A DNA stretch of 64,000 nt from a virus (taxonomy: Duplodnaviria; Caudoviricetes), in the IMG/VR virus record IMGVR_UViG_3300028886_000037, positions 160,001 through 224,000 of that record. One strand, 5' to 3'. The position numbers and the translations under genes are program-made. This document shows positions 446 to 58,946 of this stretch, one piece after another. The notes under the pieces were generated by a model. The model had not been told where the DNA came from. It was given only the letters and a program-made list of their open reading frames with translations, and did not search any database. The stretch's first letter is position 1, and every line of letters starts with the position of its first letter.

Positions 446-1471
446 TTATAGGCTGCTGATGTAAGCCTTCTTGAAGAGGAACGGGTAGTTGTCGAGCAGC
501 TCTTCGCCGTACTCGGCTTCGAGACCGACAGCGTTCTCGGTGTAAGCGTCCACGAGCTTGATGAGATTCTGGATCGTCTCTTCCTCGTCAGCCTCTTCGT
601 AGGTGCCGAGATCGATGCAGACATAGTTCTTGCCTGTCTGAGCGCCATACTTGACTCCACCGTCTCTCCAGTGAGCGCCCTTGAAGATCTCGCGGAGATA
701 AGTCGGGACAGACTTGTCTTCTAGAGCAGCGTTGATCAAGTCAGCGACTTCGTCCGGATCGTAGTCGTAAGTCTTGATGAAGAGCACATCTTCCTTTGCC
801 TCTGGCTTCTCGCCATCATATTCTCTAGCGAGATCAGCGATGTCGTTGTCTTCGTCCTTCTCCTTCACGACCTTGAAGCCCTTAGCCTCTACGATCCTCT
901 GAGCCTCTTCGAGCTGCTCGTGAGTGATGACGCGATAGCCGTGCTTCTTAGCGACTTCGATAGCTTCGTCGATCTGGTCCTGAGTGATCACTTCGTGACT
1001 TGCAGACTTCTCAGCGATCTTGTTGACCTTGTAGCCCTCTGCCTCAACGATCTTGATAGCTTCGTCGATCATCTCCTGGGACGGCTTGCCGTCGATCTTC
1101 TCAGCCTTGCGGGCTTCGGACAGGAACTGCTGGAATGACTTGACAGGAACTGCGGTGGACTCGTTGTAGCCGATTCCAGCGCCCATGCCGTCACCCTTGA
1201 GCATGTAGTTGGCCAAGATCGTGTCGACTGCTGGAGTGGACTTAGCCGTGAGGATAGCAGTAGCGAACTTCTTAGCAGCTGGTGCAGAAGTGCCGTGGCC
1301 GATCATTTCCTTCAGGTCGGACATCAGAATGTCCTTAGCGATCTTGATGCCGCTGGAGTCAACGAGCTTGTCGAAGAAAGATCCAGCGATGTACTTCTTG
1401 CAAAGAGTAGCGATGGAGTTCTTCACGTCGCTGAGCTCTGCTTCAGTCAATGTTACTTCTTGTTCTTTCAT
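446..1471 (-). CDS. putative internal head protein with three tandem EAxxIxxxxGYxV repeats
   Basis: Late promoter TATAAATA at 1515-1522; VKSFQQFLSE resembles the T4 capsid-targeting sequence MKTYQEFIAE; internal repeats. Confidence 0.55.
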   Translation of the reverse strand: MKEQEVTLTEAELSDVKNSIATLCKKYIAGSFFDKLVDSSGIKIAKDILMSDLKEMIGHGTSAPAAKKFATAILTAKSTPAVDTILANYMLKGDGMGAGIGYNESTAVPVKSFQQFLSEARKAEKIDGKPSQEMIDEAIKIVEAEGYKVNKIAEKSASHEVITQDQIDEAIEVAKKHGYRVITHEQLEEAQRIVEAKGFKVVKEKDEDNDIADLAREYDGEKPEAKEDVLFIKTYDYDPDEVADLINAALEDKSVPTYLREIFKGAHWRDGGVKYGAQTGKNYVCIDLGTYEEADEEETIQNLIKLVDAYTENAVGLEAEYGEELLDNYPFLFKKAYISSL

Positions 1472-1514
1472 TTTAGAAACTCTCCTATGTGTTCGAACTT
1501 TAGGTTTCTATTGA

Positions 1515-1522
1515 TATTTATA
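1515..1522 (-). promoter_or_regulatory. T4-type late promoter TATAAATA
   Basis: Exact T4 gp55 consensus; further copies at 4941(-), 5185(+), 10842(+), 18551(-), 35928(-), 55161(-), 60487(-), and a GATAAATA variant at 14212(+). Confidence 0.75.
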
Positions 1523-2441
1523 GGGTGATGATGAAGGCTTCGTTGTTGTACTCGAACGACTTGAGAGCGCGAAGCTGTCCTTTGTGCGTTTCGGGCTCAT
1601 AGACCCATGTGTGAGGGTCGTCTGGATAGCCGTTCGGGTTACACAGGATCGTGATTTTAAAGCCCTTAGCGTTCGTGTATACCGCCCTTTTGGCCTCATG
1701 CACGTGTCCGCACAGCCAATAGGCGTCATGATCGAAGATCTCGAGGAATTCTCTAGCGTCGAAGTAGAAGACTGCGTTTAGAGGGTCGTTCCTGAAGTCG
1801 AACGAGATCCCAAGCTGGATCGGCGTAAAGTGAGTGACCATGACTTTCGGCTGCATGAGACACAGCGTTCTCATTCTGCTGCTCTCAGCTTCCCACAACG
1901 CGTCTGCGTTGAAGTCTTTTCCTCTCCAGTACTTTCCGTCATACCATGATCTCTTCCAGTACAGCTTCGTTCTCTCTGCCCACGCTGTGTCTGGACAGCA
2001 GCACTTGAAGTCCGGAAAACCCATAGTGCCAGCGATGTCGTCATAGAGCATCTTGTCTAGCACTCTCACGTTTCCGAGTCCATTGCCATACTCTACCAAA
2101 GCGTCGACTTTCTCTTGGCTCGACTTGAATGGCAGGTTGCTCCTACTCGGCGTAGCGTTTCCGCGAACAGTCATGTCGTGATTGCCGATGACGATGTAGA
2201 CCTTCTTGTACTTCTCAGACAGCCACTTGATCGTATAGCATGTTGACTGGTAGTCGTTCGTGATGTCGCCAGGGACGATGATTCCGTCAACATCTGTCGG
2301 GTACTCTCTGAGCTTCCAGATGTAGTCGAGCGTCTCTTGAATTACGCTCTCGTGCGGATCATAGCATTCCCAGCGCTTTCTATCGACTGCCATAGGAAAC
2401 CACAGATCTGTGTGGATGTCGCTTACGACGAAGTATCTCAT
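1518..2441 (-). CDS. calcineurin-like metallophosphoesterase
   Basis: SDIH, GDI, GNHD, VTH, GHVH motifs. Confidence 0.9.
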   Translation of the reverse strand: MRYFVVSDIHTDLWFPMAVDRKRWECYDPHESVIQETLDYIWKLREYPTDVDGIIVPGDITNDYQSTCYTIKWLSEKYKKVYIVIGNHDMTVRGNATPSRSNLPFKSSQEKVDALVEYGNGLGNVRVLDKMLYDDIAGTMGFPDFKCCCPDTAWAERTKLYWKRSWYDGKYWRGKDFNADALWEAESSRMRTLCLMQPKVMVTHFTPIQLGISFDFRNDPLNAVFYFDAREFLEIFDHDAYWLCGHVHEAKRAVYTNAKGFKITILCNPNGYPDDPHTWVYEPETHKGQLRALKSFEYNNEAFIITL

Positions 2442-2857
2442 TATTCCCTCGGAAGCTTATCGACTGGAACGATCCTCCAAGCGTACTTGCCAGCGTACCA
2501 AGCAGCGAAGCTCTTAGCGTCGTTCATGTCGTTCCACTTCAGAACATCATCCTGAGTGCACTTGTTGCTGAAGAGAAGCTTGTGATTCGTCGGATATGCC
2601 TTCTCTCCTTCGAAGTCCCATTCGATGGTCCATGCTCCTGGCTCAGTCTTGCCGTCATACTCTTCGACTTTGGCTTCAGCCAGAACTCGGATCTCATGGT
2701 CGATCTTCTTGAGGCGTTCCTGGTACTGGATCAGGGCATACTTCACGCCGTCGTTCATCGGAATGCTCTCCGACTTGAGAATCTTGACTGCGAGGTTGAT
2801 CTTCCTCTGCTCAGCTACAAGTTCCTCTCTCTTCTGGATCTGTTCGTTTCTCGTCAT
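2441..2857 (-). CDS. hypothetical protein
   Basis: ORF track; translationally coupled in operon. Confidence 0.7.
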   Translation of the reverse strand: MTRNEQIQKREELVAEQRKINLAVKILKSESIPMNDGVKYALIQYQERLKKIDHEIRVLAEAKVEEYDGKTEPGAWTIEWDFEGEKAYPTNHKLLFSNKCTQDDVLKWNDMNDAKSFAAWYAGKYAWRIVPVDKLPRE

Positions 2858-3395
2858 GTTCTTTTTCCTTTATAAGTTCGTTCAATCTCTTGTTTTCTCT
2901 CAGCAGCGCTCTAACATCCTTGAACAGAGTGTTGTTAGAGAACTTGTCGTCAAACTCATCACAGAAGTCTTTAAGTCTTACGATCGAGTCTTCCAGAGTG
3001 TCTGGCTCATCCTCGTCTTCGTCGTGCTTCACTAGACTCTCAGCGCACTTTGTGATCTGGTCTGTGTAGTCTTTGAATTTATCAAAGTCGAACCTGACTC
3101 TCTTCTGTCCGTTCATCTCGAAGAACTCAGACATCAAGAAGTCTCTAGCCTTCGGGAACTTGTCAGTGAAGTACTTGTACAGACGCATGTTCGTGTAAGT
3201 GCAGCTGTCTTCCTCTGATTCCCATAAGCGTGTCGTGATAGCGCCGACGATGGCAGTCTTGTAGTACAAGTGCCAGCAGTTTACGCCGTTCAGATGGATG
3301 CACGCTAGATCGAATCCAGCATTTGCGAAGATCAACCTGAAGAGATACGACGTGTCAGTTAGCTTGTCAAATTGAGTCTTCTCTTCTACGGTCAT
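2811..3395 (-). CDS. hypothetical protein
   Basis: ORF track; coupled overlaps. Confidence 0.7.
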   Translation of the reverse strand: MTVEEKTQFDKLTDTSYLFRLIFANAGFDLACIHLNGVNCWHLYYKTAIVGAITTRLWESEEDSCTYTNMRLYKYFTDKFPKARDFLMSEFFEMNGQKRVRFDFDKFKDYTDQITKCAESLVKHDEDEDEPDTLEDSIVRLKDFCDEFDDKFSNNTLFKDVRALLRENKRLNELIKEKEHDEKRTDPEERGTCS

Positions 3396-3841
3396 TTGAG
3401 CTTCAACTCTCTAAATACGAGTTCTTTGAATATGTCCCAGTTCTCTTTGAGCTGAGTGTAGATGTCGATCTTTCGATCTGAGCCATCTTTAGGAGGCCAA
3501 GCCGATACGATCACTTCATACTCGCACTTAGCCCAGAAGTAGTACATGCACTGACGGTCAAGCTGCTTTTCGACAGTGTACTTGATCAGCTCGTCCATGT
3601 TCTTGCATCTCTTGAACTCGATACTCCAGGTCAGCTCTTCTTTGAAGAACTTTCTCAGCTCTGGCTGAATCTCGTCGAATCCGATCTTGTAAGCGTAGAG
3701 CTTTTCGCATTTCCTCAGCTTCTTGATCGTCTTAGACAGCTCTCTCTTGATGACAGACCACTGTCCGAAGTCGAACCAGTTCTGGAACTCGATAGTGTTC
3801 CCGTTGAAGTTCTCGTATAGTACTTTGAATGTAGGTTTCAT
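3392..3841 (-). CDS. hypothetical phage protein (YYFWAKCEYE...KIDIY motif)
   Basis: First gene behind early promoter at 3858-3890; RBS. Confidence 0.75.
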   Translation of the reverse strand: MKPTFKVLYENFNGNTIEFQNWFDFGQWSVIKRELSKTIKKLRKCEKLYAYKIGFDEIQPELRKFFKEELTWSIEFKRCKNMDELIKYTVEKQLDRQCMYYFWAKCEYEVIVSAWPPKDGSDRKIDIYTQLKENWDIFKELVFRELKLK

Positions 3842-3909
3842 ATTATGCCTTCCATAGTAAATCTACAAAAATTCCAGCGATTCTGTAAAACCGCTGGACT
3901 TGTAAACTT

Positions 3910-4920
3910 TTATAAACCTAGGATCTTGCTAGCGAGTCTAGAAGCCAGATCGAAATGGATACGGATGCCGCAGTCATCGAGCATCTGCTCCAGCGTCTCA
4001 GCTACGTACTCCTGATCAACATCCTGTGATTCCATCTTCTCGGAGACGTACTCAGCGATGTCACGCGCGTCGTCGTATCTCAGATCTTCGATGTTGTCAT
4101 AGAGAATCTCTGTGATCTTCATCATCTTCTCGAAGTGATAGTCAGCTCCAGATTCCTTGACGAGCTTCTTTCCAGACTTCTTGATAATCTCGTTAGCTTC
4201 AGCGAGCTCGTAGAGACCCTTGTTCTCCTTGAAGTACTCGACGACCTTCTGGACGGAGTTGAACTTGTGCTTGTTTATGACGAACTTGTTGCGGATGAGC
4301 GATACGATCCTGTGGCCGCTAGAGATAGGAATGTCGTTCCACTTCTTGCATGCTTCTTGAGAGAACTCCAGATTAGTCTCCAAGTAGTCGCCCTTGCGGT
4401 TGCTTCTGATGCGGCATGGAAGTCCCAGTTTCTCTAGCTCTTCCTTCAGTTCGTTCAGACTCAGCTGCTCTTCTGCAGGAATCGCGAAGTAGTCAATTCG
4501 CTTCTTGAGACCCATTCTGCGATCTGCGAGAACTTCTGACACAGCGCTAGAAGGACTTTCGTTCTGAAGCCACTTAGTCTCGTACTTGTCTCTTCTACCG
4601 AAGATCGGAAGCCAGCTGACTGGAACCTTTCCGCCAGTTCTCTCGAGCTCCTTGTTCGGGATGATTCCAGCGACCCATGAGCTGTCATAGAGTCCCTCTG
4701 CTTCGATCTGCTTCTTGAACTCTTGGTAAGCATCGAAGCTGAAGTTCTCGTCGTTAAGCTTGAGACAGTAGAACGTGTGGTCTCCGCCGTCAGCAGAGCA
4801 CTTGCCGTTCTGATTCATCAGGTATGTCATGAAAGTGTCGAAGGTCTTCTTCTCGCGCTTCTCGACAACTAGATGACCAGTCGACTCGAGCAGCTTCTTA
4901 GCCTCATCAAATTCGCTCAT
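3910..4920 (-). CDS. putative internal head protein (two copies of EAxxxLxxxGxxV motif)
   Basis: TATAAATA at 4941-4948; N-term MSEFDEAKKLLESTGHLVVE and internal EANEIIKKSGKKLVKES. Confidence 0.55.
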   Translation of the reverse strand: MSEFDEAKKLLESTGHLVVEKREKKTFDTFMTYLMNQNGKCSADGGDHTFYCLKLNDENFSFDAYQEFKKQIEAEGLYDSSWVAGIIPNKELERTGGKVPVSWLPIFGRRDKYETKWLQNESPSSAVSEVLADRRMGLKKRIDYFAIPAEEQLSLNELKEELEKLGLPCRIRSNRKGDYLETNLEFSQEACKKWNDIPISSGHRIVSLIRNKFVINKHKFNSVQKVVEYFKENKGLYELAEANEIIKKSGKKLVKESGADYHFEKMMKITEILYDNIEDLRYDDARDIAEYVSEKMESQDVDQEYVAETLEQMLDDCGIRIHFDLASRLASKILGL

Positions 4921-4951
4921 AGAAATTCCTCTTTATAGGATATTTATAGAG

Positions 4952-5119
4952 CTATGCGTACCACTTCTTGATGTCGTGGAACGCCTTTACGATCGAATCT
5001 TCGCCGAGTTGTTCGAGAATGTCGCACAGCAGATTGTCAGCTCTTACGTGTGCGACTTCAGTGTCGGAATTATAGCGAAGCTTGATGAGTTCTTCGAGTT
5101 CACGTTGGAATTTTGTCAT
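4952..5119 (-). CDS. small phage protein (AHxxADxLLC...KWYA), not in ORF track
   Basis: 55-aa manual translation; AAGGACC RBS and early promoter at 5153-5183. Confidence 0.75.
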   Translation of the reverse strand: MTKFQRELEELIKLRYNSDTEVAHVRADNLLCDILEQLGEDSIVKAFHDIKKWYA

Positions 5120-5217
5120 AGTTCTGGTCCTTTTGTGAAGTTTGACATAAACAATATAGGTATTTCCAGAGAATTTGTAAACGGTATAAATAAACTAAAT
5201 TGAAATTGAGTGATATT

Positions 5218-5952
5218 ATGCTAAGATTATCAGAGTGCATCAACGAAGGTTTCTTCGGAAACGGCTACGACAGATACAAGAGAAAGGTTCTAGACGCGCT
5301 TGCCTCGATCGGAATCGTCATCGACGAAGACAAGATGAAGAAGGCAGAAGACTGGATCCGAGACTTCTACGCTGACAAGATGAACGCCTACGACTGCGCT
5401 TCTGCTGTCAGAGACGAGTTCAGACGCTATAGAGCTCCAGTGACGGAAGCTTTCGAGAACTACGCTACCGAGATCATCAACAGCGCACCGCAGTCTAAGC
5501 GCAAGAACGCAGTAGATCTCATCAAGTCTATGGACAACATCAAGAAGGCTCACTTCGATCACTGCATCATGAGCATCGCCGAGAAAAAGAAGATGGATCC
5601 GAAGGGCGTAGTCAAAGCTAGAGGCTTCGACATCATGGAGCTCGTCAATGACGGAAAGCAGGCGCCGTCTCAGATCGTAGATTCGATCTCCAGACATCTG
5701 CTCGACACTAAAGAGCCCATGTCCGTCAAAGAAGCGCTTGAGATCATCAAAGAGTCTGGAAAGGTCGCATCGATGAGTGACTACATCGACATGGTCAAGG
5801 ATGAGCTCATCAGGATGGACTTTGGAGAATCTTACACAGACAGTCTAGTAGACAGATACTACCGCAAGACGATCGCTTTCTATTTCAACGAGGGTTTCAC
5901 TCCAGAAGAGACAGCAGAACATATTCGTGCTCTTGAAGACGATGAAGCTTAA
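5218..5952 (+). CDS. putative internal head protein with CTS-like N-terminus MLRLSECINE
   Basis: TATAAATA at 5185-5192; internal EALEIIKESGKV motif; two copies of a ~50-aa helical domain. Confidence 0.55.
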   Translation: MLRLSECINEGFFGNGYDRYKRKVLDALASIGIVIDEDKMKKAEDWIRDFYADKMNAYDCASAVRDEFRRYRAPVTEAFENYATEIINSAPQSKRKNAVDLIKSMDNIKKAHFDHCIMSIAEKKKMDPKGVVKARGFDIMELVNDGKQAPSQIVDSISRHLLDTKEPMSVKEALEIIKESGKVASMSDYIDMVKDELIRMDFGESYTDSLVDRYYRKTIAFYFNEGFTPEETAEHIRALEDDEA

Positions 5953-6015
5953 TAGAAAAGAGACGGCGAGAAACCGTCTCTTTTTGTGTCCAAACCAACT
6001 TTGTTAATAAGTTGT

Positions 6016-7625: not shown

Positions 7626-7630
7626 ACAGA

Positions 7631-8699: not shown

Positions 8700-9050
8700 C
8701 TATCTCTTACGCTTATCTCTCACTAGGTTTGCGTACTCGACCTGCTGTCCAAGGAACTCATACAGTTCCCCGCGTTCTACAGACTTGATAGAGACTTCCT
8801 TCGGTGCCGCCTTTACGAGCTTCATGCGGATGTCTTCATAGTACTGACGATATTCGATCGTAGTCGAGTTGATGATCATGTCCCAGCGGAATCCGCCATT
8901 TGCTCTTATGCGCTGCTCTTCGTCGTTGAGCTTCGAGTAAGCGATTGCCGTGAATTCCTCTTTTCCACCGACATAGTTAGTGACCTTGATCTGGTCTGGA
9001 TAGTCGGTCATAGCGTCAAGCGCAGTCTGCTTTGCCTCTTCGTAAGTCAT
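8700..9050 (-). CDS. hypothetical phage protein (MTYEEAK...), in frame with upstream TnpB
   Basis: Own AAGGAAGG RBS and ATG at 9050; phage-like codon usage. Confidence 0.7.
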   Translation of the reverse strand: MTYEEAKQTALDAMTDYPDQIKVTNYVGGKEEFTAIAYSKLNDEEQRIRANGGFRWDMIINSTTIEYRQYYEDIRMKLVKAAPKEVSIKSVERGELYEFLGQQVEYANLVRDKRKR

Positions 9051-10367
9051 TATGCCTTCCTTGTGTGAACTGTTCACCGCCTTTAGGCTGTGAGCTTCTA
9101 GTTTTCGCTTCAACGGAGCCACTTGTGCTAACCCAGTAAAACCGGGAGGCATAGAGGCGGCTACCTCAGCGGAGGCGTGTTCCACGCACTCAGCACGTTT
9201 AGTCGTGCCAAACAAGAGTACATTACAGGCGGAATGCCAATCCCTCGGCTTAGTATAGCCGCAATCGCAGTGATATGTGCGTTCATCCAAGCCAATGGTA
9301 TTTACAGCACCGCAAACTGGGCACATCTTGGTAGTCGGTAACCACTTTGACAGCACGAATGCACGGTCTGTCTTAACAAGCATCTTGATTTTCTGCTTGA
9401 GAGCACCCATACACGAATGCTGAACTTGCTTACCAAACCAAGTCTGGCTCCAGTTCTTAATCTGTTCGTCCTGTATGTAGATGACATCATAATTAGACAC
9501 AAGGTCGTGATAGATTTTGTTGCAGATGTCCTTGCGGATATTCGCAACATGTTCATGCTCACGGGCAAGCTGCTTCCTACAGTTCCACCGCCGCTTGGAG
9601 TCCTTCTCTTTCTTGTGCCTGTTGAGCATCTTGCTCAGGTACTTTAGGTACTCGGTTTCTTGCACTTTGCAATCGTAGGTCTTGTTGTCCGATGTCGTTA
9701 TCGTATTCTTGATGCCGAAGTCCAGACCGACATTCTTTCGAGTGCGGTTTCTCTGCTCCTTCGGCAACATAGTCGTGAGTTTTACATAGTAGCCGGACGC
9801 CTTGCGGATTAGCTTGGCATCTGCTATCTCGTATTCCTCAAACTCTATCTGATGCAAGCCGTTCACCTTCAATTTCCTGAAGCCAGGAATGGTGATATGG
9901 CTTGCATCCAAAATCCTCGTGAAACCTGTAATGATGGGAATGCAGTTCACTTCGCTCTTGAACTTCAACGCGCCGACCTTCATCCCCTTGGCTTTCGCCT
10001 TGGCAAGGTTGACAATATCCGTCTTCTTCTGTGCTACAGTAGCACGATGAAGCACCGATGGTAATGTGACCGTATCCGTTATCGGGTTCTTGCCCTTGTC
10101 GTAGTGGACTACATCCTTGTGTTCGGTGTACTTGTAGTCGAATATACTGTTATCTGGATTGTCCTTCGACAATGACAACATATCGTTGATTACCCACTTC
10201 GCTTCCTTGAAGCACTGGGACAGCTTCTGGAATGTTTCCTTCGGATTGTGCCTTATGGAAACCTTCAGCTCGAACACTCGGCATATCTGCGTCTTACGAC
10301 GGGCATGAGTCTCTGCCATGCTCGCCTTAATCTTTGCCTTTGTATCTTCGCTTCTTACTGCTTCCAT
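8700..10367 (-). CDS. tnpB: RNA-guided endonuclease TnpB (reads through into downstream gene)
   Basis: VGLDFGIK (RuvC-I), IYIQDE (RuvC-II region), CPVCG/CDCG zinc ribbon, RDWHSACN (RuvC-III). Confidence 0.9.
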   Translation of the reverse strand: MEAVRSEDTKAKIKASMAETHARRKTQICRVFELKVSIRHNPKETFQKLSQCFKEAKWVINDMLSLSKDNPDNSIFDYKYTEHKDVVHYDKGKNPITDTVTLPSVLHRATVAQKKTDIVNLAKAKAKGMKVGALKFKSEVNCIPIITGFTRILDASHITIPGFRKLKVNGLHQIEFEEYEIADAKLIRKASGYYVKLTTMLPKEQRNRTRKNVGLDFGIKNTITTSDNKTYDCKVQETEYLKYLSKMLNRHKKEKDSKRRWNCRKQLAREHEHVANIRKDICNKIYHDLVSNYDVIYIQDEQIKNWSQTWFGKQVQHSCMGALKQKIKMLVKTDRAFVLSKWLPTTKMCPVCGAVNTIGLDERTYHCDCGYTKPRDWHSACNVLLFGTTKRAECVEHASAEVAASMPPGFTGLAQVAPLKRKLEAHSLKAVNSSHKEGIMTYEEAKQTALDAMTDYPDQIKVTNYVGGKEEFTAIAYSKLNDEEQRIRANGGFRWDMIINSTTIEYRQYYEDIRMKLVKAAPKEVSIKSVERGELYEFLGQQVEYANLVRDKRKR

Positions 10368-10772: not shown

Positions 10773-10870
10773 ATTTACTCCTTTTGCCTAGTTTGTAATC
10801 AAAATATACGAAAGTTTCTATATTTCGTAAACCGATCATGCTATAAATAAACTGATTATTGAGGAAATTT

Positions 10871-11662
10871 ATGGAATTCACTAAAGCAAAAGAACTTCTA
10901 GAGAGCATGGGCTCAAAAGTCATCTTGGAGAGCTACATTGATCTATTCGGAGTCTTGAAAGTCGATCGAGAGAATCTGAAGAGATCTCAGATCAAACACA
11001 TAAACGATGCAAAGCGTGAGATTCAGACATTCCTAGATGACGAGAACTTCTACGATCATCCGGGTAGAGCGATCGACTACGCAGTCAAGCAGTTGAGAAA
11101 CTATGGAGCATTCACTGGATCCGACATGTCTGATGAGGAGTTCAAGGACAGAGTTGGAATCACCGACAAGCGTGAAGAGTTCCATAAGCAGATCGAAGAC
11201 TTCAAGGCTGCTAACAAGGCTAACAGAGAGCAGTTCGAATCAGATCTCGTCAAGGGCGCAGACATGGAGCTGATCGAGTCAGACGGCTATCGCACTGTCA
11301 TCGCATACAAGGACTTCGATCCGAAGACTATCCGTTTCGACATCGCTTGGACTCACGGAGACCTAGACACTGGCAAGAGACCGTCTATCGATGGACTCTA
11401 TCCGCACGGCTGGGTCGAGCTCGGCTACAGCACTCTTGGACATCGTGAGAACGCGCCAGAGATTCCTAACTGGACTGCTGGAGATCACAGAGTCAAGAAC
11501 TGGCCAGTCACTGCATCGGTAGAAGTTCTCAAAGAGATTCACGACTTCTTGAAGAGCCATCCTGAGGACGTCGAAGATCAGATCGGTTCTGAGAAGGCTA
11601 ACGCAGAAGACATCGCAAGAGATATTGCAAACTACAAGGGACGCAACTGGTCTGGAGACTAA
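10871..11662 (+). CDS. putative internal head protein (MEFTKAKELLESMGSKVILES)
   Basis: TATAAATA at 10842-10849; GAGG RBS; shared motif. Confidence 0.55.
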   Translation: MEFTKAKELLESMGSKVILESYIDLFGVLKVDRENLKRSQIKHINDAKREIQTFLDDENFYDHPGRAIDYAVKQLRNYGAFTGSDMSDEEFKDRVGITDKREEFHKQIEDFKAANKANREQFESDLVKGADMELIESDGYRTVIAYKDFDPKTIRFDIAWTHGDLDTGKRPSIDGLYPHGWVELGYSTLGHRENAPEIPNWTAGDHRVKNWPVTASVEVLKEIHDFLKSHPEDVEDQIGSEKANAEDIARDIANYKGRNWSGD

Positions 11663-11663
11663 T

Positions 11664-12491
11664 ATGAGCTTGGTAGATTCAGCACTCAAATCTGCTCGGA
11701 AACTCGTTGACGGCATGGGAAACGGCGGAGTCGCTGCAGTTCACGCATCCAACAAGCTATTCGGAGACGGTTTCGAGCTAACTTGTCTAGGCTGGGCAAT
11801 TCGTGGAGTCGACCCAGTCAATCTCTGCTCTTGGGAGGAAGTCAATCACGTCGGTGATAATAAGCCCAACGAGCTCGGATTCGTAAGAGACTTCAGCTAT
11901 AAGTACAAGATCAATGCCGTTCACTACTACGGCTATCCGTCAAAGTTGCAAGAGACACAGTTCTTCGTGGACGATCTCGGCCCACTCAAGACTAAATTAA
12001 GAGAGTACAAGAGGGAAGATATGAAAGAGAAAATGACAGTTTCAGAGGCAATGGAGATTCTCAAGGAATCTGGAAAGAAAGCTATCAACGAGAGCTACCT
12101 TGAACAGGTGAACGTAGAAGAACTCTACTCGCTCGCACTCGAGTCGCTGTTCTTCGCTGACCAAGTTCATCTATGGCACTGGACATGCAAGAGTGGTTTC
12201 CATCACACCCATCTACAGGAAGTCTACGAGTCGCTCAGAGACTTCGCAGATGAGCTCGTGGAGATCTGCTTGGCTTCTGGAAAGAAGTTCCAGGTGAAGG
12301 CCAATACGAGAGAGCTTGGCGGGGACGGAGAGTTCGACGTCCAGGACGCTATCGACGAGATCGAAGAGTTCATCGACGAGATTCAGGCTACTGCTAAGGT
12401 CTTCAAGGAAGAGTCCGAGATCACTACGCTGATCGACGACGAAGCTAAGGCGCTGACTAAAGAGATCGGACTGCTAAAGTCCTTCAGCTAG
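11664..12491 (+). CDS. fusion: unknown N-domain + head-motif linker + ferritin/Dps-like four-helix bundle (DUF5856-like)
   Basis: HLWHW..HHTHLQEVYE..DELVE pattern typical of Dps/ferritin-like proteins; EAMEILKESGKKAINES linker. Confidence 0.65.
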   Translation: MSLVDSALKSARKLVDGMGNGGVAAVHASNKLFGDGFELTCLGWAIRGVDPVNLCSWEEVNHVGDNKPNELGFVRDFSYKYKINAVHYYGYPSKLQETQFFVDDLGPLKTKLREYKREDMKEKMTVSEAMEILKESGKKAINESYLEQVNVEELYSLALESLFFADQVHLWHWTCKSGFHHTHLQEVYESLRDFADELVEICLASGKKFQVKANTRELGGDGEFDVQDAIDEIEEFIDEIQATAKVFKEESEITTLIDDEAKALTKEIGLLKSFS

Positions 12492-14223: not shown

Positions 14224-14884
14224 ATGAAGATGACATTTGAACAATCGAAAGAGATCCTCGAGAGCGCTGGCCTCACTGTAGAGGAAGATACGCTAAAAGA
14301 GAAGAGCAAGCTCGCAGATACCTTCATTCATTCTATCTGGCTAGAGATCGAAAAATACTTCTCAGGAAAAACTTCAAAGTATTTTAAATACGACGAAATA
14401 GAGATCATGCGTCAAATAATGGCTTCTGTATATGAATATGCACAAAGAACGTGTGAATTGGACGGAAGACCTTGTAACTTGGAAACGTTAAAACAAGTAA
14501 TAAAAGACGCATACGACTCAAACCGTACAGGAAAGTAAGATTCAGCTAGATCAAGCACTACGTCTGTTGAGAGAAAACCACTATGTCTGCAATGCGGCTG
14601 GACATAGTGGCTTTGAACTCGACTATCCGTCAGTCGACTACTATAGAGAGCAGATCAAGATCGAATTGAAGAAGCTCGGCTACAATACCGTCGACTGGGT
14701 TGACTGGGAGTGCTGGACCAAGTTGATAAACGACTTGTACAGTGACGAGAAAGACGTCGAAGATGCAGCTGAGATTCTCAGAGATTATGAGAACGAAGAG
14801 CAGATGCGAGCTCAGGAAGAGCAAGCGCAAGAAGAGCAGCTGATGAACAACTACGACTTCGATCACGGAGACTGGATCTACTAG
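14224..14884 (+). pseudogene. putative head-motif protein split by a +1 frameshift near 14520
   Basis: ORFs 14224-14538 and 14567-14884; second frame open from 14504 encoding VQES-KIQLDQALRLLRENHYV motif. Confidence 0.5.
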
Positions 14885-52721: not shown

Positions 52722-53535
52722 AGTTCTTGGTCCTTGTTTAGTTAATTATATTAATTTTGTGCAGTTTTGTAAACTATGTAAAGAAAAGATTTACAAACTG
52801 AACTCCATAGGAACTGCAGAGCTAGAGTGTCGCTCACTCATGTCACGCTCGACCAGCAGTCCCAGTTTGCCCAGATACTGCTCTAGTTCTTTGAAGCTGC
52901 ATTCGAACATAGTGTGTCCATCGAACGCATTCGTAAGCTTCGCCGTGTTGGTCTTGATGTCGTAAGACAGTTCGTATTGCTCAAGCCCATGATCGATTTT
53001 CGTCAGATACATGTCGGAAGATCTAAAGCCCTTCAAACGGCCCTCTAGACGCTTGAACTTCCAAAGTATAAAAGAATCTAGTGTCATGATTTTTCCGAGA
53101 TCATCTTTTTCCACTTCGATACACGGAAGGTGATGTCAGTGGGAAGATACTGTAAGTTAGTTGTGTTCAAAGTTGTCATGGCGTCCCATTCATCCACCAC
53201 GAAGATCTTAGAATTTCCGAAGATGTAAGAGAACGTCAGAATGTGACCGCTGTCTACTACCTTCAGCGTAAGAGACTTGTTGCTCTCGTTGACGATCAGG
53301 TCATACTTGTAGTCGTTGCTCATGCGGATGAAGAGTCCCTTCATCACTTCATACTCTTCTCTTGCTCTATCCATTCGTTCCTCCAATTGCGATGATGAAC
53401 ATTTTCAAGCCGATCAGGAATATAGCCATAGATCCTAGACAAATGAAGAACCAGACCACGACATCTATCGGGTCTGCGTCCATGATTTTTATTAGAAACT
53501 CGAAAATTCTTTTCATCTACTAAAATATATGAAAA

Positions 53536-53988
53536 TTACACGTAGTTGATTCTTCTCATCTCTTCAGTCTCCGGACAAGCGCCGCTGTGGAAGAACTGGA
53601 TTCCTTCTAGCTTTCGACACATCTTCGAGAGAAGCTTGAACAGCTCAGAGTTCTTGTCGTGGTCGATAGCGCGATAGAGTTCGTCAGCCATCTTGTCGAA
53701 AGGCTCGGCTACTTCTTTCTTGTAGAGCTTGTTTATTCGATCCTTCTCTTCCCGAACGGACTTGTAGTCTTCGTTAGCTAGAGCACGGCTGATCCAAGGC
53801 GCTTCGAGTGCTTGATCGAAGTCGATGACTCGATCATACATCTTTTCGAGCTTAGCCATGAGCTCAGGAGTCTTCTTCTGAGCCCTGCGGACTTTAGCTC
53901 TCCAGCGACGACGTGCGATCTGCTCTGGAGACTTTACGACTTTCACTTTTTCAGATTCTAGGATCTGTAGAGCCTTCTTGATTTCCAT
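53536..53988 (-). CDS. putative head-motif protein (MEIKKALQILESEKVKVV)
   Basis: Shared N-terminal motif followed by Arg-rich helix. Confidence 0.45.
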   Translation of the reverse strand: MEIKKALQILESEKVKVVKSPEQIARRRWRAKVRRAQKKTPELMAKLEKMYDRVIDFDQALEAPWISRALANEDYKSVREEKDRINKLYKKEVAEPFDKMADELYRAIDHDKNSELFKLLSKMCRKLEGIQFFHSGACPETEEMRRINYV

Positions 53989-54006
53989 TATTCAATCCTC
54001 AAATTG

Positions 54007-54363
54007 TTATTGTTTAAAGTAGTTGTCTACGATGCCGTCGATGTCCATGCTGTCGTAGCTATTGTACTCGTTCGAAACGATGTCGGCGCGTTCTTCTGAA
54101 ATGTCGCCGTTTGCGACAGCCTTAGAGATGCACTTCTCGAATGCCCTGTCGCCAGCCTGATTGATTCCGTCTCTGACACCCTCAAGCACAGCACGGATGA
54201 CTTCAGATACTGCATTGTTGTAGCTGTTGTCGAACTCTGTGATCACTTCTGTCGGATCATCGCTGTCATGGAATCTGAATGTGTTGGCAAAATCGATAGA
54301 AGCATTTAAGATACGCTTCTTGACTTCATCGGTGACGGTAGCCTTTAGCTTTTCGTAGTTCAT
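54007..54363 (-). CDS. hypothetical early protein
   Basis: GAGG RBS; promoter 54384-54416. Confidence 0.75.
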   Translation of the reverse strand: MNYEKLKATVTDEVKKRILNASIDFANTFRFHDSDDPTEVITEFDNSYNNAVSEVIRAVLEGVRDGINQAGDRAFEKCISKAVANGDISEERADIVSNEYNSYDSMDIDGIVDNYFKQ

Positions 54364-54440
54364 GATTTCCTCTTTGATATTTCAAATTTAAGAAAATCCT
54401 GAGTATTTCTAAACCCAGGATTTTAGATTTTTCAGAAAAA

Positions 54441-55130
54441 TTAGATGTGGCGATATACTTCGAAGAATTCTTTGAACGCCTCGGCGACAGCCTTAGATCC
54501 GCCAGCGTCAAGCTTCTTGTCGAAAGCTTCCTTAGCGGGCTCAAGAGTCTTGATAGCCTCTTCTGGTGTGTGCTGGATGCGCTTCTCGATGTAGAGACCA
54601 GTGGACTCGTTCAATACCCACTCATAGGACTCGTTCACTGCGTTGACGTAAGCGTCCGGACATGAAGGTCCGAGAACTGCGTCAATAGTGATCAAGTGGA
54701 AGTTGGACTCCACGATACCAGTGTCTTCGTTCACGTCGCCAACGCCTCTAGAGGAGACGCCCATTCTCACGTCGACGAGAAGACCAGCGAGCATCTTGCC
54801 GTTCGGCATATACTCAAGAACCTTAGCCTTGCCGATAGCGAAGTCCTCGTCCATGCGTAGAGAGCAGATCTTGATTGCTGCTTCCTTGGAGTTCACCTTC
54901 GCATATTCCGGGTGCTCTAGCTCACCAAGGCACTCGTTGCTGTTGATCAGCTTGTTCAAGGACGTTACTTCTCGTTCGATCAATTCACGCGGATAAGTTC
55001 TACCATTTCTGTTCTTCTTTCCAGCTCCCATGAAGACGCCCTCGATGTACAGAGACTTAGACTCGTTGTCTCTATTAGAAGTGACGTCGCTGAGATACGC
55101 TTCGTTCAAAAGTTTCTTATGTTCAGCCAT
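54441..55130 (-). CDS. prohead core protease (T4 gp21-like)
   Basis: NRNGRTYP, LGELEHP, GVSSRG, DAV..PS; TATAAATA at 55161-55168. Confidence 0.93.
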   Translation of the reverse strand: MAEHKKLLNEAYLSDVTSNRDNESKSLYIEGVFMGAGKKNRNGRTYPRELIEREVTSLNKLINSNECLGELEHPEYAKVNSKEAAIKICSLRMDEDFAIGKAKVLEYMPNGKMLAGLLVDVRMGVSSRGVGDVNEDTGIVESNFHLITIDAVLGPSCPDAYVNAVNESYEWVLNESTGLYIEKRIQHTPEEAIKTLEPAKEAFDKKLDAGGSKAVAEAFKEFFEVYRHI

Positions 55131-55247
55131 TTTACAGCTCCTTAAACTCTTTGTACCTATTATTTATACAAAGCCGATGTCTCAATACTGTCTAAACACA
55201 AGAAAAACGAGACAAAAATGTCTCGATTCTTGTCTCGATTTTGTCTC

Positions 55248-55757
55248 TTAAAGCTCGATTTTCTCGCAAATTACTCCATTTTGAAGCAGATACTCGATGC
55301 CTTTTCGATCATCATACTCCTCGATGTAGTACACTTCCTTGATCCCAGAAGTGAGAATGAGCTTACAGCAGTTCAGACATGGACTGGTAGTCAGGTACAG
55401 CTGTGCTCCGGTGATGTCCGTGTTGTTCTTCAGTGCGAATCCCAAGCAGTTCATCTCTGCGTGAATCTCGTACTTGTCTGCGAACTCATGATGCTCTTTG
55501 CGGTACTCTTCCTCTGTCAAGAACCTGGTCTGACGCGTGAGAGCGCTATTCCAAGTGATCTTGCCGTCAGGAGTTCTCTTGTAGATCTTGTTGCACTCAG
55601 TGCAGCCCTTAGCGACGCCGTTGTAGCCAGAGCTGAGAATTCTAGAATCCTTCACCAAGATCGCTGCGACTTGGAGTCTTGAGCATGTCGAGTACTTCTT
55701 TAGCGAGTTGAGCACGTCGACATAGAAACGGTTGAATTTCTTTGGATTGTTACACAT
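55248..55757 (-). CDS. dCMP deaminase
   Basis: SGYNG, HAEMN, PCLNC zinc motifs. Confidence 0.92.
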   Translation of the reverse strand: MCNNPKKFNRFYVDVLNSLKKYSTCSRLQVAAILVKDSRILSSGYNGVAKGCTECNKIYKRTPDGKITWNSALTRQTRFLTEEEYRKEHHEFADKYEIHAEMNCLGFALKNNTDITGAQLYLTTSPCLNCCKLILTSGIKEVYYIEEYDDRKGIEYLLQNGVICEKIEL

Positions 55758-56625
55758 CGATTCTCTCCAGTCTGATGAACGTGTTAGCGTATTCTGGCAC
55801 CTTGTCGAACTTGTTAGCGAGACCAGCAGCCATCAGGAACTCTGACATGTCTCGCATGCTCATGCTGCTGAAACGAAGTTTCTTGAACTCTTCCATGATC
55901 TTGAGCTGGACGTGAACTGGAATGTAGTCGAAGTCGATGAGCTTCTTGTTGCGCTCGAAGTTCGCTTTCACCTCATCAGTCTGTTCATTCAGCCAGTCTT
56001 CGAGACCGTTCTCTACGATGTCAGCAGCCGTCTTTACGGAGACTCTCGGCTTGATGTGTGGAATGCCGTCACCTTTGTCTCCAACTACGACTTTTTCGAG
56101 AAGATAGCGTTCTGGATTCACGACGTGAATGAACTGTCGCTTGATCGGATGGTACTGCTTGTAGCCATCGTATTTCAAGAGCTGGTAGAAGTCACGGTCA
56201 GTCGATACGCAGATCACCTCGTATTTTGGCGTGAGATTCTTGGTCAAGACAGCGACGAGATCGTCTCCCTCTGAACCTTCAACCTTGAGTTGATAGATGT
56301 TCGGAATGTATTGACGGAGTTTCTCACAGAATGCGTCTGCTACTGGATAGAACGTGTCGAAGTCGAGCTTGGCTTTAGCTTTCTCTTCTTTTCTGTGAGC
56401 TTTGTAAGCGTCGAAGATCTCGTATCTCCAGTTTCTCTTTCCTTCCTGGCAGAGAATCACAGAGTTAGCTTCGGTCTTCTGCACTAGAGTTGCGAGATTT
56501 TCTAGAATTTCGCACTTCCAGTTATTATATGTCGTGTCGGTCGGATCGTCTCTGTAGCACTTGCAACCAGTACGAATTGCCATGTTGGCCAAATCGACCA
56601 ATAGGATTCTTTTTCTTTGCTTCAT
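55750..56625 (-). CDS. rnh: T4-type RNase H / 5'-3' exonuclease
   Basis: LLVD, WR..F..YK..R, EGDD, STDRDFYQL, GDKGDGIP. Confidence 0.9.
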   Translation of the reverse strand: MKQRKRILLVDLANMAIRTGCKCYRDDPTDTTYNNWKCEILENLATLVQKTEANSVILCQEGKRNWRYEIFDAYKAHRKEEKAKAKLDFDTFYPVADAFCEKLRQYIPNIYQLKVEGSEGDDLVAVLTKNLTPKYEVICVSTDRDFYQLLKYDGYKQYHPIKRQFIHVVNPERYLLEKVVVGDKGDGIPHIKPRVSVKTAADIVENGLEDWLNEQTDEVKANFERNKKLIDFDYIPVHVQLKIMEEFKKLRFSSMSMRDMSEFLMAAGLANKFDKVPEYANTFIRLERIDV

Positions 56626-56724
56626 TGTAAATTAGCGCTTTGTGTTGCGCTCTCCTTATGAACAATTATAGTAAAATTTCGCAAAAACTATTTAGAATGA
56701 CCAAAAGATTACTAAATTTTGAAC

Positions 56725-58371
56725 ATGAACTTTCAATTCCCTTATGAAAAAATCCGTCCAGAGCAGCAAAAGTTCCTGGACACTGTGGCTGGTACCGACA
56801 AGAAGTATATTGTAGCTCAGATGCCTACGGGCTCTGGAAAGTCGGGTATCGCAATCTATGAATCCCTGTTGGCTAACTCGAGCTACATCGTCGTGACCAA
56901 CAAAGCTCTGCAGGATCAGTACTGGAGAGACTTCAAAGACAAGTTCCCTATCCAGATGCTGAAGGGTATGCAGAACTACGACTGCGTAGTGAACGACAAT
57001 GTCAAGTGCGACAGAGGTCCATGTCAGGGATCTGACTCTACTTCCATCGGCATCAAGCGTTACTGCAAGATCAACGACATGTGCCCGTACTACAACACGC
57101 TAAAGAAAGCGTTCGACTCTAAGGTCTTCCTCGCTAACACTTCCATCATGAGATCGGCTGTTGCGCCGAAGGGAGAACAGGTCAAGCGAGACGTGATGAT
57201 AATCGACGAAGCCCATCTTCTCGAAGATTTCCTAGTCGATGTCGGAACGATCAGCTTCAGCGCCGACAAGATGATCAAGGCTTTCGAAGCCGAGAAGAGA
57301 TTGACCAGCGAAGATCTCCACTACATCAAGCACTGTGACTTCGAGTCCTCCTCTAAGCCGACTGCCAAGATGGAGAAATACATCAACATCTGCCAGAACC
57401 TCGCACAGAGTATCGCAAAAGAGCTGATCGAGTACGAGGCCGAACAGCAGAAGAAAGTCGTGGACAGCAAGGTAAAGAAAGCGATGGAAGATGCTGCAGA
57501 TCCACGCAAGTCTAAGTACAAGCACAAGCGTGAGATTCTCGAAACGATCGCAAAGATTGACGCATACAAGGACAGCGACGAGACAGACTCTTGGGTCTAC
57601 AACTGGGACAAGAAAGAACGCCGTCTTGACATCGTTCCTGTGAACGTGGACTGGATCTTCAAGAAGTATTTCGATGGCCTCGCAGACAAGATTATCTTCA
57701 TGTCCGCTACCATTCTGAACCTCTCTAACTTCGCTAACAGCCTCGGCATCCGTCCAGATCAGTGCTGCTTCGTAGATGTCGAATCCACTTTCGATCCGAG
57801 AAAAGCCCCCATCGTCATTCTGGGAAACTGCAACACCAACTACAAGGATCTGCAAGATGAGTCGAACATGGCGAACATCGTGAAGTCCGTCAAGTACATC
57901 ATGGATCAGCACAAGGGACAGCGTGGCATCATCCATACGGGTAACATGAAGATCTCGAAATACATCAAGGAGCATCTCCACGACCCTCGCATTCTGGTGC
58001 GCCTTGACGAAGTGAGAAACGAAGATATTCTGGAAGAGCACTACGTCAGCAAGGACTCAGTTCTCGTGTCGTCTTCGATGACAGAAGGAATTGACCTTCA
58101 CGACGACCTTTCTACATTCCAGATCATCGTCAAGCTTCCGTGGGAATCCCTTGGCAACCTCAGAACCAAGACTCTGTCAGAGGAAGTGCCGCTATGGTAC
58201 TCGAACAAGATGTGGCAGAAACTGCTTCAGGCTAGTGGCCGTTCCGTGAGAAGCCACGAAGACTACGCTGAGACTTTCGTCCTCGATGCCTCGTTCAGTT
58301 TCCAACACAAAAAATTCTCGAAATACCTGCCTGAGTATTTCGAGAAAAGATTGATCGATCCTAACGCTTAG
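56725..58371 (+). CDS. DinG/XPD-family helicase
   Basis: Q motif, PTGSGKS, Cys cluster (Fe-S), DEAH, SAT, EGID, KLP, QASGRSVR. Confidence 0.88.
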   Translation: MNFQFPYEKIRPEQQKFLDTVAGTDKKYIVAQMPTGSGKSGIAIYESLLANSSYIVVTNKALQDQYWRDFKDKFPIQMLKGMQNYDCVVNDNVKCDRGPCQGSDSTSIGIKRYCKINDMCPYYNTLKKAFDSKVFLANTSIMRSAVAPKGEQVKRDVMIIDEAHLLEDFLVDVGTISFSADKMIKAFEAEKRLTSEDLHYIKHCDFESSSKPTAKMEKYINICQNLAQSIAKELIEYEAEQQKKVVDSKVKKAMEDAADPRKSKYKHKREILETIAKIDAYKDSDETDSWVYNWDKKERRLDIVPVNVDWIFKKYFDGLADKIIFMSATILNLSNFANSLGIRPDQCCFVDVESTFDPRKAPIVILGNCNTNYKDLQDESNMANIVKSVKYIMDQHKGQRGIIHTGNMKISKYIKEHLHDPRILVRLDEVRNEDILEEHYVSKDSVLVSSSMTEGIDLHDDLSTFQIIVKLPWESLGNLRTKTLSEEVPLWYSNKMWQKLLQASGRSVRSHEDYAETFVLDASFSFQHKKFSKYLPEYFEKRLIDPNA

Positions 58372-58946
58372 ATTACCCAGTCAATGTATGGTATAGGCTG
58401 TGAGATGACAGATTCGTCTAGATCAGATTCCCAAGGCTCATCTTCAGCTTGTACATACTTGATCTTAGCGTCATCCAGAGTCTTCAGAGCATCAGAGATA
58501 TTCATCTGCTTTGCGTACTCGGGATGCTTAGCGACGTTTCTGCCCTTGAGAACTTCGTACACGTAGTAGCAGTCAGCTACAGTCGAAGGCTGCTTGCTCT
58601 TTCTCCAGGATGTATCAAGATAGTCAGTCTCATCTGAGTTGTCTCTCTTCCAGTCAAGACCCTCTTCTTTGATGACCTGCTTGATCTTCTTAGCGAGCCA
58701 CTTCTTGACATCGTCATCAGTCATCTTGAGGAATCTGTTGTCTAAATAACCTCCGCTATGGTAGTGCTTAGATACGTGTAGAACGACTTCTCCACCCTCG
58801 AGCTCAGCGTCGATATATGGCCAATAGCCTTCAGCAGCTCTGCTGTTCTCCCACATGCCGTCAGACAGCTGTCCGAAGACTCCGTCTAGGATGTCGCACT
58901 CTTTCTGAGTCTTCAAACCAGTCTTGATAATTCTATACTGATCCAT
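58368..58946 (-). CDS. hypothetical late protein with C-terminal head motif (ISDALKTLDDAKIKYV)
   Basis: Last gene of late cassette. Confidence 0.6.
   Translation of the reverse strand: MDQYRIIKTGLKTQKECDILDGVFGQLSDGMWENSRAAEGYWPYIDAELEGGEVVLHVSKHYHSGGYLDNRFLKMTDDDVKKWLAKKIKQVIKEEGLDWKRDNSDETDYLDTSWRKSKQPSTVADCYYVYEVLKGRNVAKHPEYAKQMNISDALKTLDDAKIKYVQAEDEPWESDLDESVISQPIPYIDWVI

What the first reader, a model, noticed from the sequence alone, without database searches (positions are those of the whole stretch)
446..58946. Dispersed family of mostly late genes carrying a shared ~20-aa tag next to gp21-type cleavage sites: candidate capsid-cargo sorting system
Seen: otherwise unrelated proteins share the motif [ML]x[hydrophobic]xxAxx[IL][LIV]xxxGxx[VL], often ending in [ILV]xE(S). 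Copies occur in 446-1471 (three tandem: DEAIKIVEAEGYKV, DEAIEVAKKHGYRV, EEAQRIVEAKGFKVVKE), 3910-4920 (DEAKKLLESTGHLVVE; EANEIIKKSGKKLVKES), 5218-5952 (EALEIIKESGKV), 10871 (KAKELLESMGSKVILES), 11664-12491 (EAMEILKESGKKAINES), 14224 (EQSKEILESAGLTVEE), ~14540 (DQALRLLRENHYV), 53536-53988 (KALQILESEKVKVV) and 58368-58946 (DALKTLDDAKIKYV). Almost all lie directly behind, or in an operon behind, TATAAATA late promoters, though scattered among early genes. Two also have T4 CTS-like decapeptides (VKSFQQFLSE, MLRLSECINE). Established: T4 gp21 cleaves after [IL]-x-E, internal proteins carry the CTS MKTYQEFIAE, and a gp21 homolog is in this window. Inference: the motif is a portable prohead-targeting tag, usable N-terminally, internally or in tandem, that loads diverse cargo domains (polyproteins cut by gp21) into the head for injection.
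Basis: partly seen in the sequence, partly recalled or inferred. Interest (0 to 1): 0.85.

Follow-up and report, generated by a model that had tools for sequence, protein, structure and literature searches.

The report
Portable leader peptide on late phage proteins
An uncultured 248-kb T4-like rumen phage attaches the same roughly 20-residue peptide, usually ending in its head protease's cutting motif, to about a dozen unrelated late proteins; it is probably a new, longer version of the T4 tag that loads proteins into the capsid, but neither cutting nor loading has been shown.

Summary
A profile of the motif finds 17 strong copies in 13 proteins of this 247,923-bp phage. All lie in real reading frames and are far above noise. 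Ten are in the window.

The motif is a helix, a glycine, then a short strand: M-x-[IFL]-x-E-A-x-x-[ILV]-[LV]-[EK]-[SA]-x-G-x-[KR]-[VL]-[IV]-x-E-S.

- **Late expression:** ten of 13 tagged genes have TATAAATA within 70 nt upstream, against 32 of 340 others (p = 4e-8).
- **Protein-level selection:** codons differ between copies.
- **Modularity:** in relatives, domains are swapped, deleted or fused exactly at the tag.
- **Structure:** AlphaFold leaves the tag detached; the fold starts right after the Glu.
- **Cut site:** 81% of 129 distinct tags end in [ILVM]-x-E, like the protease's own conserved sites.
- **Synteny:** in a 416-kb relative, the tagged families sit beside gp21, gp22 and gp23.
- **Distribution:** the tag occurs only in unnamed metagenomic proteins. 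It was absent from the 74 kb of T4 tested.

The best reading (about 0.5) is a prohead-core propeptide and junction module, a variant of the T4 capsid-targeting sequence. Cleavage, packaging and injection are untested. C-terminal copies and a separate classical leader family complicate the reading.

The scan reported the same tag earlier in a related 243-kb phage (e1-5641939).

The parts
446..1471 (-). Late gene for a 341-aa 'hub' protein. In order it has a conserved helical C1 domain (res 1-105), an internal classical CTS-like site (res 110-119, window 1115-1144), three tandem tags (992-1078, 914-985, 839-925) and a C-terminal alpha/beta domain.
   Evidence: Tags score 26.8-29.6 bits. Orthologue alignment A2 keeps the CTS-like site invariant. 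AlphaFold shows isolated tag helices and a confident C-terminal domain. TATAAATA at 1515-1522.
3910..4920 (-). Late gene, 336 aa: N-terminal tag (4837-4920), domain A, internal tag (4126-4212), domain B.
   Evidence: Tags score 30.0 and 34.4 bits. L011 and L012 have a 103-aa form with one hybrid tag plus domain B. The G001 orthologue has a 7-aa leader in place of the first tag. TATAAATA at 4941-4948.
5218..5952 (+). Late gene, 244 aa: classical CTS-like N-terminus (5218-5247), domain, internal tag (5716-5805), swappable C-terminal domain.
   Evidence: Tag scores 28.6 bits. The domain after the tag differs in L011 and L015. The homologue in the 416-kb phage ends in a C-terminal tag and lies next to gp22. 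TATAAATA at 5185-5192.
10871..11662 (+). Late gene, 263 aa, with an N-terminal tag (10871-10954; Glu20|Ser21 at the tag/fold boundary).
   Evidence: Tag scores 33.4 bits. In A1 the residues Met1, Ala6, Leu10, Ser12, Gly14, Lys16 and Glu20 are invariant. Homologues of 415-428 aa carry an extra N-terminal domain in front of the tag. AlphaFold gives pLDDT 46-57 for res 1-20, and the fold starts at res 21-22. TATAAATA at 10842-10849.
11664..12491 (+). Gene translationally coupled to 10871-11662: variable N-terminal domain, tag (12027-12119), DUF5856 (Dps-like) domain.
   Evidence: Tag scores 34.7 bits. PF19174 E = 1e-7 and phrog_858 E = 6e-11 match the part after the tag. The N-terminal modules differ in L012, L013 and L016.
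14224..14538 (+). 104-aa gene with an N-terminal tag (14224-14310). The following ORF 14540-14884 has only a degenerate tag and no ATG.
   Evidence: Tag scores 31.2 bits. L011 has three successive small genes with N-terminal tags at this place. Sequence read.
53536..53988 (-). 150-aa gene with an N-terminal tag (53902-53988, Gly replaced), downstream of gp21.
   Evidence: Tag scores 30.3 bits. No TATAAATA within 70 nt. Hairpin after gp21.
54441..55130 (-). Prohead protease gp21 homologue with its own late promoter (55161-55168). It has conserved self-cleavage-type sites near both ends.
   Evidence: PF03420 E = 3e-30, phrog_207 E = 4e-52. Alignment A4 of 25 homologues keeps L-L-N-E near the N-terminus and A-V-N-E|S and V-L-N-E|S before the C-terminal tail.
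58368..58946 (-). 192-aa protein: domain X followed by a degenerate tag (58458-58511) and a short tail.
   Evidence: Only 5.6 bits. However, domain X is the N-terminal domain of P0012-P0015, where a strong tag joins it to the 10871-type domain.

Best explanation
The motif is a portable propeptide and junction module of about 20-22 residues: an amphipathic helix with an N-cap, a Gly, then a short strand ending in [ILV]-x-E. It is used by a clade of uncultured 240-416-kb T4-like phages.

The phages place it in front of, between or behind small unrelated domains of late-expressed accessory proteins.

The most likely mechanism is as follows.
1. During prohead assembly the helix docks its carrier onto the scaffolding core (inferred).
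2. The gp21-type protease then cuts after the Glu (inferred).
3. The downstream domains are released inside the head, so multi-domain carriers behave as polyproteins.
4. C-terminal copies stay on their carrier.

What is shown:
- the module is real
- it is late-expressed
- it lies at domain boundaries
- it is coupled to protease-type sites
- it belongs to head-module protein families

What is inferred: binding, cutting, packaging and injection.
For: 1. There are 17 copies far above noise, with different codons, so selection is on the peptide.
2. Ten of 13 tagged genes sit behind TATAAATA against 32 of 340 others, p = 4e-8.
3. Relatives at 47-90% identity keep the tag but shuffle domains exactly at it. 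X-tag-Y, tag-Y and X-tag forms all exist. A domain between two tags is deleted, leaving a hybrid tag. Tag-plus-domain genes come and go.
4. AlphaFold leaves the tag as a low-confidence free helix. The fold begins right after Glu20|Ser21. Three tandem tags form no domain.
5. 105 of 129 distinct tags have [ILVM]-x-E within 9 residues of the Gly, against 12-14% background. The Glu and the P3 Ile/Val are invariant or nearly so in A1.
6. These sites resemble gp21's own conserved sites and the inferred gp23 maturation site.
7. P0059 places a tag directly before a copy of the gp23 maturation site and N-arm.
8. In a 416-kb phage, the tagged hub gene is the divergent neighbour of gp21. It lies within 4 kb of gp23 and gp22, together with DUF5856, a two-tag protein and a 5218-type protein that ends in a tag.
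9. Two tagged proteins also carry conserved classical CTS-like sites.
10. Of 45 tagged cluster representatives found in 1.84 billion proteins, 33 have the tag at residue 1-2.
11. T4 precedent: 10-19-residue propeptides target diverse internal proteins to the core and are removed by gp21. Alt and gp21 also have C-terminal propeptides (PMC9026906, PMC3012670).
Against: - There is no direct evidence of cleavage, packaging or injection. The phage is uncultured and has no proteome.
- The genome has a separate family of classical CTS-like N-termini behind late promoters. A second targeting signal therefore looks redundant.
- Four of 17 copies are at the extreme C-terminus, where cutting after the Glu would achieve nothing.
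- About 19% of tags lack the site. P1' is variable.
- The site statistic is partly circular, because those columns are in the profile.
- The G001 orthologue of 3910-4920 lost the helix of its first tag.
- No tag is found on gp21, gp22 or gp23.
- Profile comparison with the gp23 propeptide shows no similarity.
- The low AlphaFold confidence may reflect shallow alignments.
Confidence: 0.5

Rival explanations
1. The tag is only a cleavable linker, that is, a processing cassette. It presents an accessible gp21 site between modules of head polyproteins. Targeting to the prohead is done by other signals, such as the classical CTS-like leaders or the domains themselves.
For: Two tagged proteins carry separate conserved CTS-like sites. 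The tag lies at domain joints and is disordered. 81% of tags end in the site. The G001 orthologue keeps only a 7-residue leader with the site.
Against: T4 gp21 needs very few determinants (PMC9026906), so a cut site would not need a conserved 13-residue helix with an invariant Ala and Gly. The C-terminal copies and the many N-terminal copies, which have nothing upstream to separate, are not explained.
Confidence: 0.15
2. The tag is a docking or oligomerisation peptide for a late complex that is not the prohead core. It might bind a common hub protein (possibly the C1 domain of the 446-1471 family), a chaperone or a tail/baseplate part. The Glu would be structural and not a cut site.
For: The tag works at either end and in tandem. 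It is a free amphipathic helix that needs a partner. C1-domain proteins nearly always carry two or more tags.
Against: The synteny is with gp21, gp22 and gp23, not with tail genes. The site after the tag matches the protease's own sites. P0059 links the tag to the capsid maturation site. AlphaFold did not dock the tags onto C1 within the same chain.
Confidence: 0.2
3. There is no shared function. The motif is a common helix-Gly-strand element (half of a PASTA-like or similar alpha/beta unit) that recurs by chance or by descent in small phage domains.
For: Weak, sub-threshold PASTA matches cover profile positions 9-37 (E = 0.003-0.0045). Small paralogue families have degenerate tag-like N-termini that may be part of their fold.
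Against: The enrichment is extreme: 17 copies against none in shuffles or in T4. The late-promoter association has p = 4e-8. The domains on either side are unrelated. Recombination joints fall exactly at the tag. The tag is not packed against the adjacent fold.
Confidence: 0.1

Closest known systems
Phage T4 capsid-targeting sequence (CTS) of internal proteins IPI-III and Alt, removed by prohead protease gp21 (Mullaney and Black 1996, as reviewed in PMC9026906 and PMC3012670)
   Same: Both are short leaders shared by otherwise unrelated, fast-evolving late proteins. Both end in [LI]-x-E. A gp21 homologue is present. The cargo genes are hypervariable between relatives.
   Different: The tag is twice as long and has a different consensus (helix, Gly, strand). 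It is also used internally, in tandem and at C-termini. It coexists with a separate family of classical CTS-like leaders in the same genome. It is unproven experimentally.
Propeptides of head and ejection proteins of giant phages phiKZ, 201phi2-1 and SPN3US, cut at A/S-x-E by a gp21-related protease (PMC5694885, PMC10052503)
   Same: Many head proteins in a jumbo phage are processed after Glu. Paralogues share identical N-terminal leaders. Propeptides contain several sites.
   Different: Those propeptides are mostly over 100 residues and specific to a paralogue family. They are not one 20-residue module shared by unrelated domains.
Phage P1 DarB N-terminal capsid-targeting signal (PMC9024508) and encapsulin cargo-loading peptides (own knowledge)
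   Same: A short terminal peptide is enough to load cargo into an HK97-fold shell. Encapsulin tags work at either terminus.
   Different: There is no sequence relation. Neither has coupled protease sites or tandem and internal use.
PASTA domain (PF03793)
   Same: The helix-Gly-strand sequence pattern of the first half of the domain.
   Different: Scores are below the Pfam cut-off and only about 28 of 64 profile positions match. There is no third strand, no extracellular context, and the tag is not folded as a domain.

Membership tests
T4-type capsid-targeting propeptide (CTS) | Short leader shared by otherwise unrelated proteins, at the N-terminus | tested here: met
   Five of 13 tagged proteins in this genome and 33 of 45 tagged cluster representatives have the tag at residue 1-2. 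The flanking domains are unrelated ORFans. Internal, tandem and C-terminal copies go beyond the T4 pattern.
T4-type capsid-targeting propeptide (CTS) | Leader ends in the prohead protease motif [LI]-x-E | tested here: met
   105 of 129 distinct tags have the motif, against 12-14% background. The sites are similar to the conserved gp21 self-sites. The test is partly circular.
T4-type capsid-targeting propeptide (CTS) | Sequence likeness to the T4 IP leader decapeptide | tested here: not met
   The tag consensus is different. The tag profile scores at most 5.6 bits on 74 kb of T4, including genes 20-24. A different set of proteins in this genome carries T4-like leaders.
T4-type capsid-targeting propeptide (CTS) | Late expression together with head genes | tested here: met
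   Promoter association p = 4e-8. This rests on the promoter motif only, with no RNA data.
T4-type capsid-targeting propeptide (CTS) | Cleavage by the prohead protease | not testable with these tools
   Needs co-expression or virion mass spectrometry.
T4-type capsid-targeting propeptide (CTS) | Leader is sufficient to load a protein into the prohead core | not testable with these tools
   The one co-folding job gave no verdict (see Tried and rejected).
PASTA domain (PF03793) | Score above the Pfam gathering threshold over the whole ~64-residue domain | tested here: not met
   17.9 and 17.4 bits against a cut-off of 23.2. Only profile positions 9-37 match.

The most novel reading that the evidence does not exclude
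The tag is the ligand of a cohesin-dockerin-like loading system inside the prohead. A conserved multi-tag hub protein (the C1-domain family, window 446-1471), or the scaffold, offers the receptor. Any late protein that acquires the 20-residue tag is recruited. The position of the tag then decides its fate. Domains downstream of a tag are cut free and can leave with the DNA. Domains upstream of a tag, or carrying a C-terminal tag, stay tethered. This would be a programmable two-fate cargo-sorting code used by 240-416-kb phages.
Probability: 0.15. Interest if true: 0.8.

Novelty: new variant of a known kind. Interest (0 to 1): 0.55.

Why it matters
If the tag does load proteins into the head, it marks out the likely injected arsenal of a large, uncultured group of rumen and gut jumbo phages: about a dozen proteins here and 22 tag copies in a 416-kb relative. 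All these proteins are of unknown function and turn over fast, as expected of counter-defence cargo.

It would also show that capsid-targeting signals can be longer, position-independent and combined into polyproteins. That would give phage engineers a second, natural design for packaging foreign proteins.

The claim is directly testable with one protease gene and one tagged substrate.

Tried and rejected
- **Co-folding of the tag (A3) with the gp22-type scaffold (A5):** no verdict. This counts neither for nor against binding.
- **The tag as a copy of the gp23 propeptide helix:** suggested by the BLAST alignment of P0059 with gp23. Profile-profile comparison found nothing (probability 0.35%), so the idea was dropped.
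- **C1 domain against T4 gp68:** no similarity.
- **Internal translation starts at the Met of internal tags:** no proper ribosome-binding sites at the right spacing.
- **Recent DNA cassette spread:** rejected, because codons differ between copies.
- **Homologous cargo carrying a classical leader in one phage and the tag in another:** none found, apart from the 7-residue leader in G001.
- **Fold search of the 10871 cargo model against PDB:** nothing at E <= 0.001.
- **ESM Atlas on the C1 domain:** no usable hit.
- **Phage database searches:** megablast of the window, and tblastn of the two-tag protein and of P0029, found no match. No cultured relative was therefore found that could supply virion proteomics.
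- **Relatives of the 10871 protein:** Viral contigs held none. They came from metagenome contigs instead.
- **Tools and limits:** Only 74 kb of T4 was scanned, not the whole genome.


Full report
**Context.** The window is bases 160001-224000 of a single 247,923-bp contig with 47% G+C. It is a divergent T4-like phage.
- It has a gp21-type prohead protease (window 54441-55130; PF03420 E = 3e-30).
- It has a gp23 major capsid protein (genome 84982-86331; PF07068).
- It has a T4-type scaffold protein (genome 86362-87378; phrog_237, PF25623).
- It has a portal (genome 98642-100255).
- The best gp21 matches among 50,697 deposited phages are cyanophages at about 41% identity.
- Megablast of the window finds nothing, so there is no cultured relative.
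- Earlier notes of this scan call it a rumen phage.

- After one refinement there are 17 copies at 15.6-34.7 bits in 13 proteins. Every one is in the true reading frame.
- The next hit scores 8.9 bits. Five shuffled proteomes peak at 6.5 bits and 74 kb of phage T4 at 5.6 bits.
- The consensus from 48 distinct copies is M-x-[IFL]-[ED]-E-A-x-[EK]-[ILV]-[LV]-[EK]-[SA]-x-G-x-[KR]-[VL]-[IV]-x-E-S. Ala is present in 94% and Gly in 96%.
- The copies use different codons, so the peptide is what is conserved, not a DNA cassette.
- The copies at ~14540 and in 58368-58946 are degenerate. The second is validated by homology (see the modularity section).
- Seven strong copies lie elsewhere in the genome.

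**Late promoters.** Exact TATAAATA occurs 55 times in the genome and 8 times in the window.
- Ten of 13 tagged genes have one within 70 nt upstream, against 32 of 340 other genes. The odds ratio is 32 and Fisher p = 4e-8.
- Gene 11664-12491 is coupled to 10871-11662.
- Gene 53536-53988 lies downstream of gp21, but a terminator-like hairpin stands between them.

**The tag is a modular joint.** Homologues of the 10871 protein and six metagenomic loci at 47-90% identity keep the tag but rearrange what surrounds it.
- *Fused and split forms:* the 10871-type domain occurs with the tag at residue 1. In 415-428-residue proteins the tag joins it to an N-terminal domain, which is the domain of window 58368-58946.
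- *Clean deletion:* the 336-residue protein of 3910-4920 (tag, domain A, tag, domain B) is a 103-residue protein in L011 and L012. There, one hybrid tag precedes domain B.
- *Swapped domains:* the domain after the tag of 5218-5952 differs in L011 and L015. The modules before the tag of the DUF5856 protein differ in L012, L013 and L016.
- *Gene turnover:* small genes that begin with the tag are gained and lost between close relatives.

**Structure.** With alignment A1, AlphaFold gives a confident fold (mean pLDDT 82) for the 10871 protein.
- Residues 1-20 have pLDDT 46-57, with a helix at 3-12.
- The fold begins at residue 21-22, right after Glu20|Ser21.
- The three tandem tags of 446-1471 are modelled as isolated helices with floppy links, not as a domain.
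- The tag therefore behaves as a linear motif that needs a partner.

**Protease-type sites.** Of 129 distinct tags from this clade and from the wide search, 105 have [ILVM]-x-E within nine residues after the Gly, mostly with Glu at +6.
- The background is 12-14%. These columns are part of the profile, so the figure is inflated.
- In A1 the Glu is invariant, the P3 Ile/Val nearly so, and P1' is Ser, Thr or Gly.
- In 25 gp21 homologues, L-L-N-E near the N-terminus and A-V-N-E|S and V-L-N-E|S before the C-terminal tail are conserved.
- Alignment with T4 gp23 places this clade's capsid maturation site at [LI]-x-E|D-F.
- Natural C-terminal tags stop within a residue or two of where the cut would fall.
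- T4 propeptides of 10-19 residues target internal proteins to the core and are removed by gp21. Alt and gp21 also lose C-terminal pieces (PMC9026906). The internal proteins are otherwise highly diverse (PMC3012670).

**Wider distribution and synteny.** The tag profile (A3) was run against 1.84 billion cluster representatives. It found 48 proteins at E <= 0.001.
- The ten checked are all unnamed metagenomic sequences.
- Of the 45 with a tag scoring at least 10 bits, 33 have the tag at residue 1-2 and 32 have two or more tags.
- Eleven carry the helical C1 domain that starts the 446-1471 protein.
- One, P0059, places a tag directly before a copy of the gp23 maturation site and N-arm (BLAST E = 3e-9).
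- A related complete 243-kb phage has 12 tag matches. A complete 416-kb phage has 22.

In that 416-kb phage, the two-tag C1 protein has two TATAAATA sites upstream and is the divergent neighbour of gp21. Within 5 kb lie gp23, gp22, a DUF5856 protein, another two-tag protein and a homologue of the 5218 protein that ends in a C-terminal tag. The families that carry the tag here therefore belong to the head-assembly module in a distant relative.

**What argues for caution.**
- The genome has a second set of late proteins with T4-like leaders (earlier notes e1-5642312 and e1-5642309). Two tagged proteins carry both signals.
- C-terminal tags cannot be cleavable leaders.
- One orthologue has lost the helix of its first tag.
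- No partner was identified.
- All cargo domains are ORFans.
- Weak PASTA-like matches are below threshold and cover half the domain.

**Verdict.**
- I rate a prohead-core propeptide and junction module at about 0.5.
- A mere cleavable linker is at 0.15.
- A docking peptide for another late complex is at 0.2.
- A common structural element with no shared function is at 0.1.

This is a new variant of a known kind. The same tag was reported earlier by this scan in a related 243-kb phage (e1-5641939). That is not independent evidence. Here it is extended by the wide search, the synteny and the shuffling analysis.

Noticed in passing
window 8700-10367 (-): A 555-aa ORF that looks by eye like a TnpB/OrfB-type transposon nuclease, with paired Cys motifs near the C-terminal third. 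It sits among the tagged late genes.
   Followed up: no
window 14536-14570: The ORF after 14224-14538 has no ATG. An ATT five bases after an AGGAAAG would start it with a degenerate tag. Locus L011 has an ATG-started tagged gene at the same position.
   Followed up: partly
window 54441-55130 versus genome 84982-87378; L071:9231-14634: gp21 lies about 128 kb from gp22 and gp23 in this genome. In the 416-kb relative, gp21, gp23 and gp22 form one compact module. The head module has therefore been scattered here.
   Followed up: partly
P0059 (metagenomic protein): A 164-aa protein made of an N-terminal module, one tag, a copy of the mature N-arm of gp23 and a poly-Lys tail. It may be a capsid-wall mimic that binds DNA.
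   Followed up: partly
L071:10001-10654 and P0021, P0029, P0035: Hub proteins of other phages carry a Cys-Cys-Gly, poly-Lys and F-V-P-F-W-A-K-K-K linker between the tags and the C1 domain. It is absent from this genome.
   Followed up: partly
genome 239571-239918; G001 38.5-41.4 kb; G005 216.2-217.1 kb: Tandem families of small paralogues whose N-termini are degenerate tag-like helices. In these the helix may be part of the fold.
   Followed up: no
window 3910-4920, residues 152-169: A weak SAP-like helix motif inside domain A (PF02037 E = 0.024; phrog_31904 E = 3e-4).
   Followed up: no
genome 54613-59545 (locus L003:14613-19545): A run of late ORFans with classical CTS-like N-termini surrounds the two-tag gene 55191-55589. 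It looks like an internal-protein cluster. There are no Pfam or PHROG matches.
   Followed up: partly
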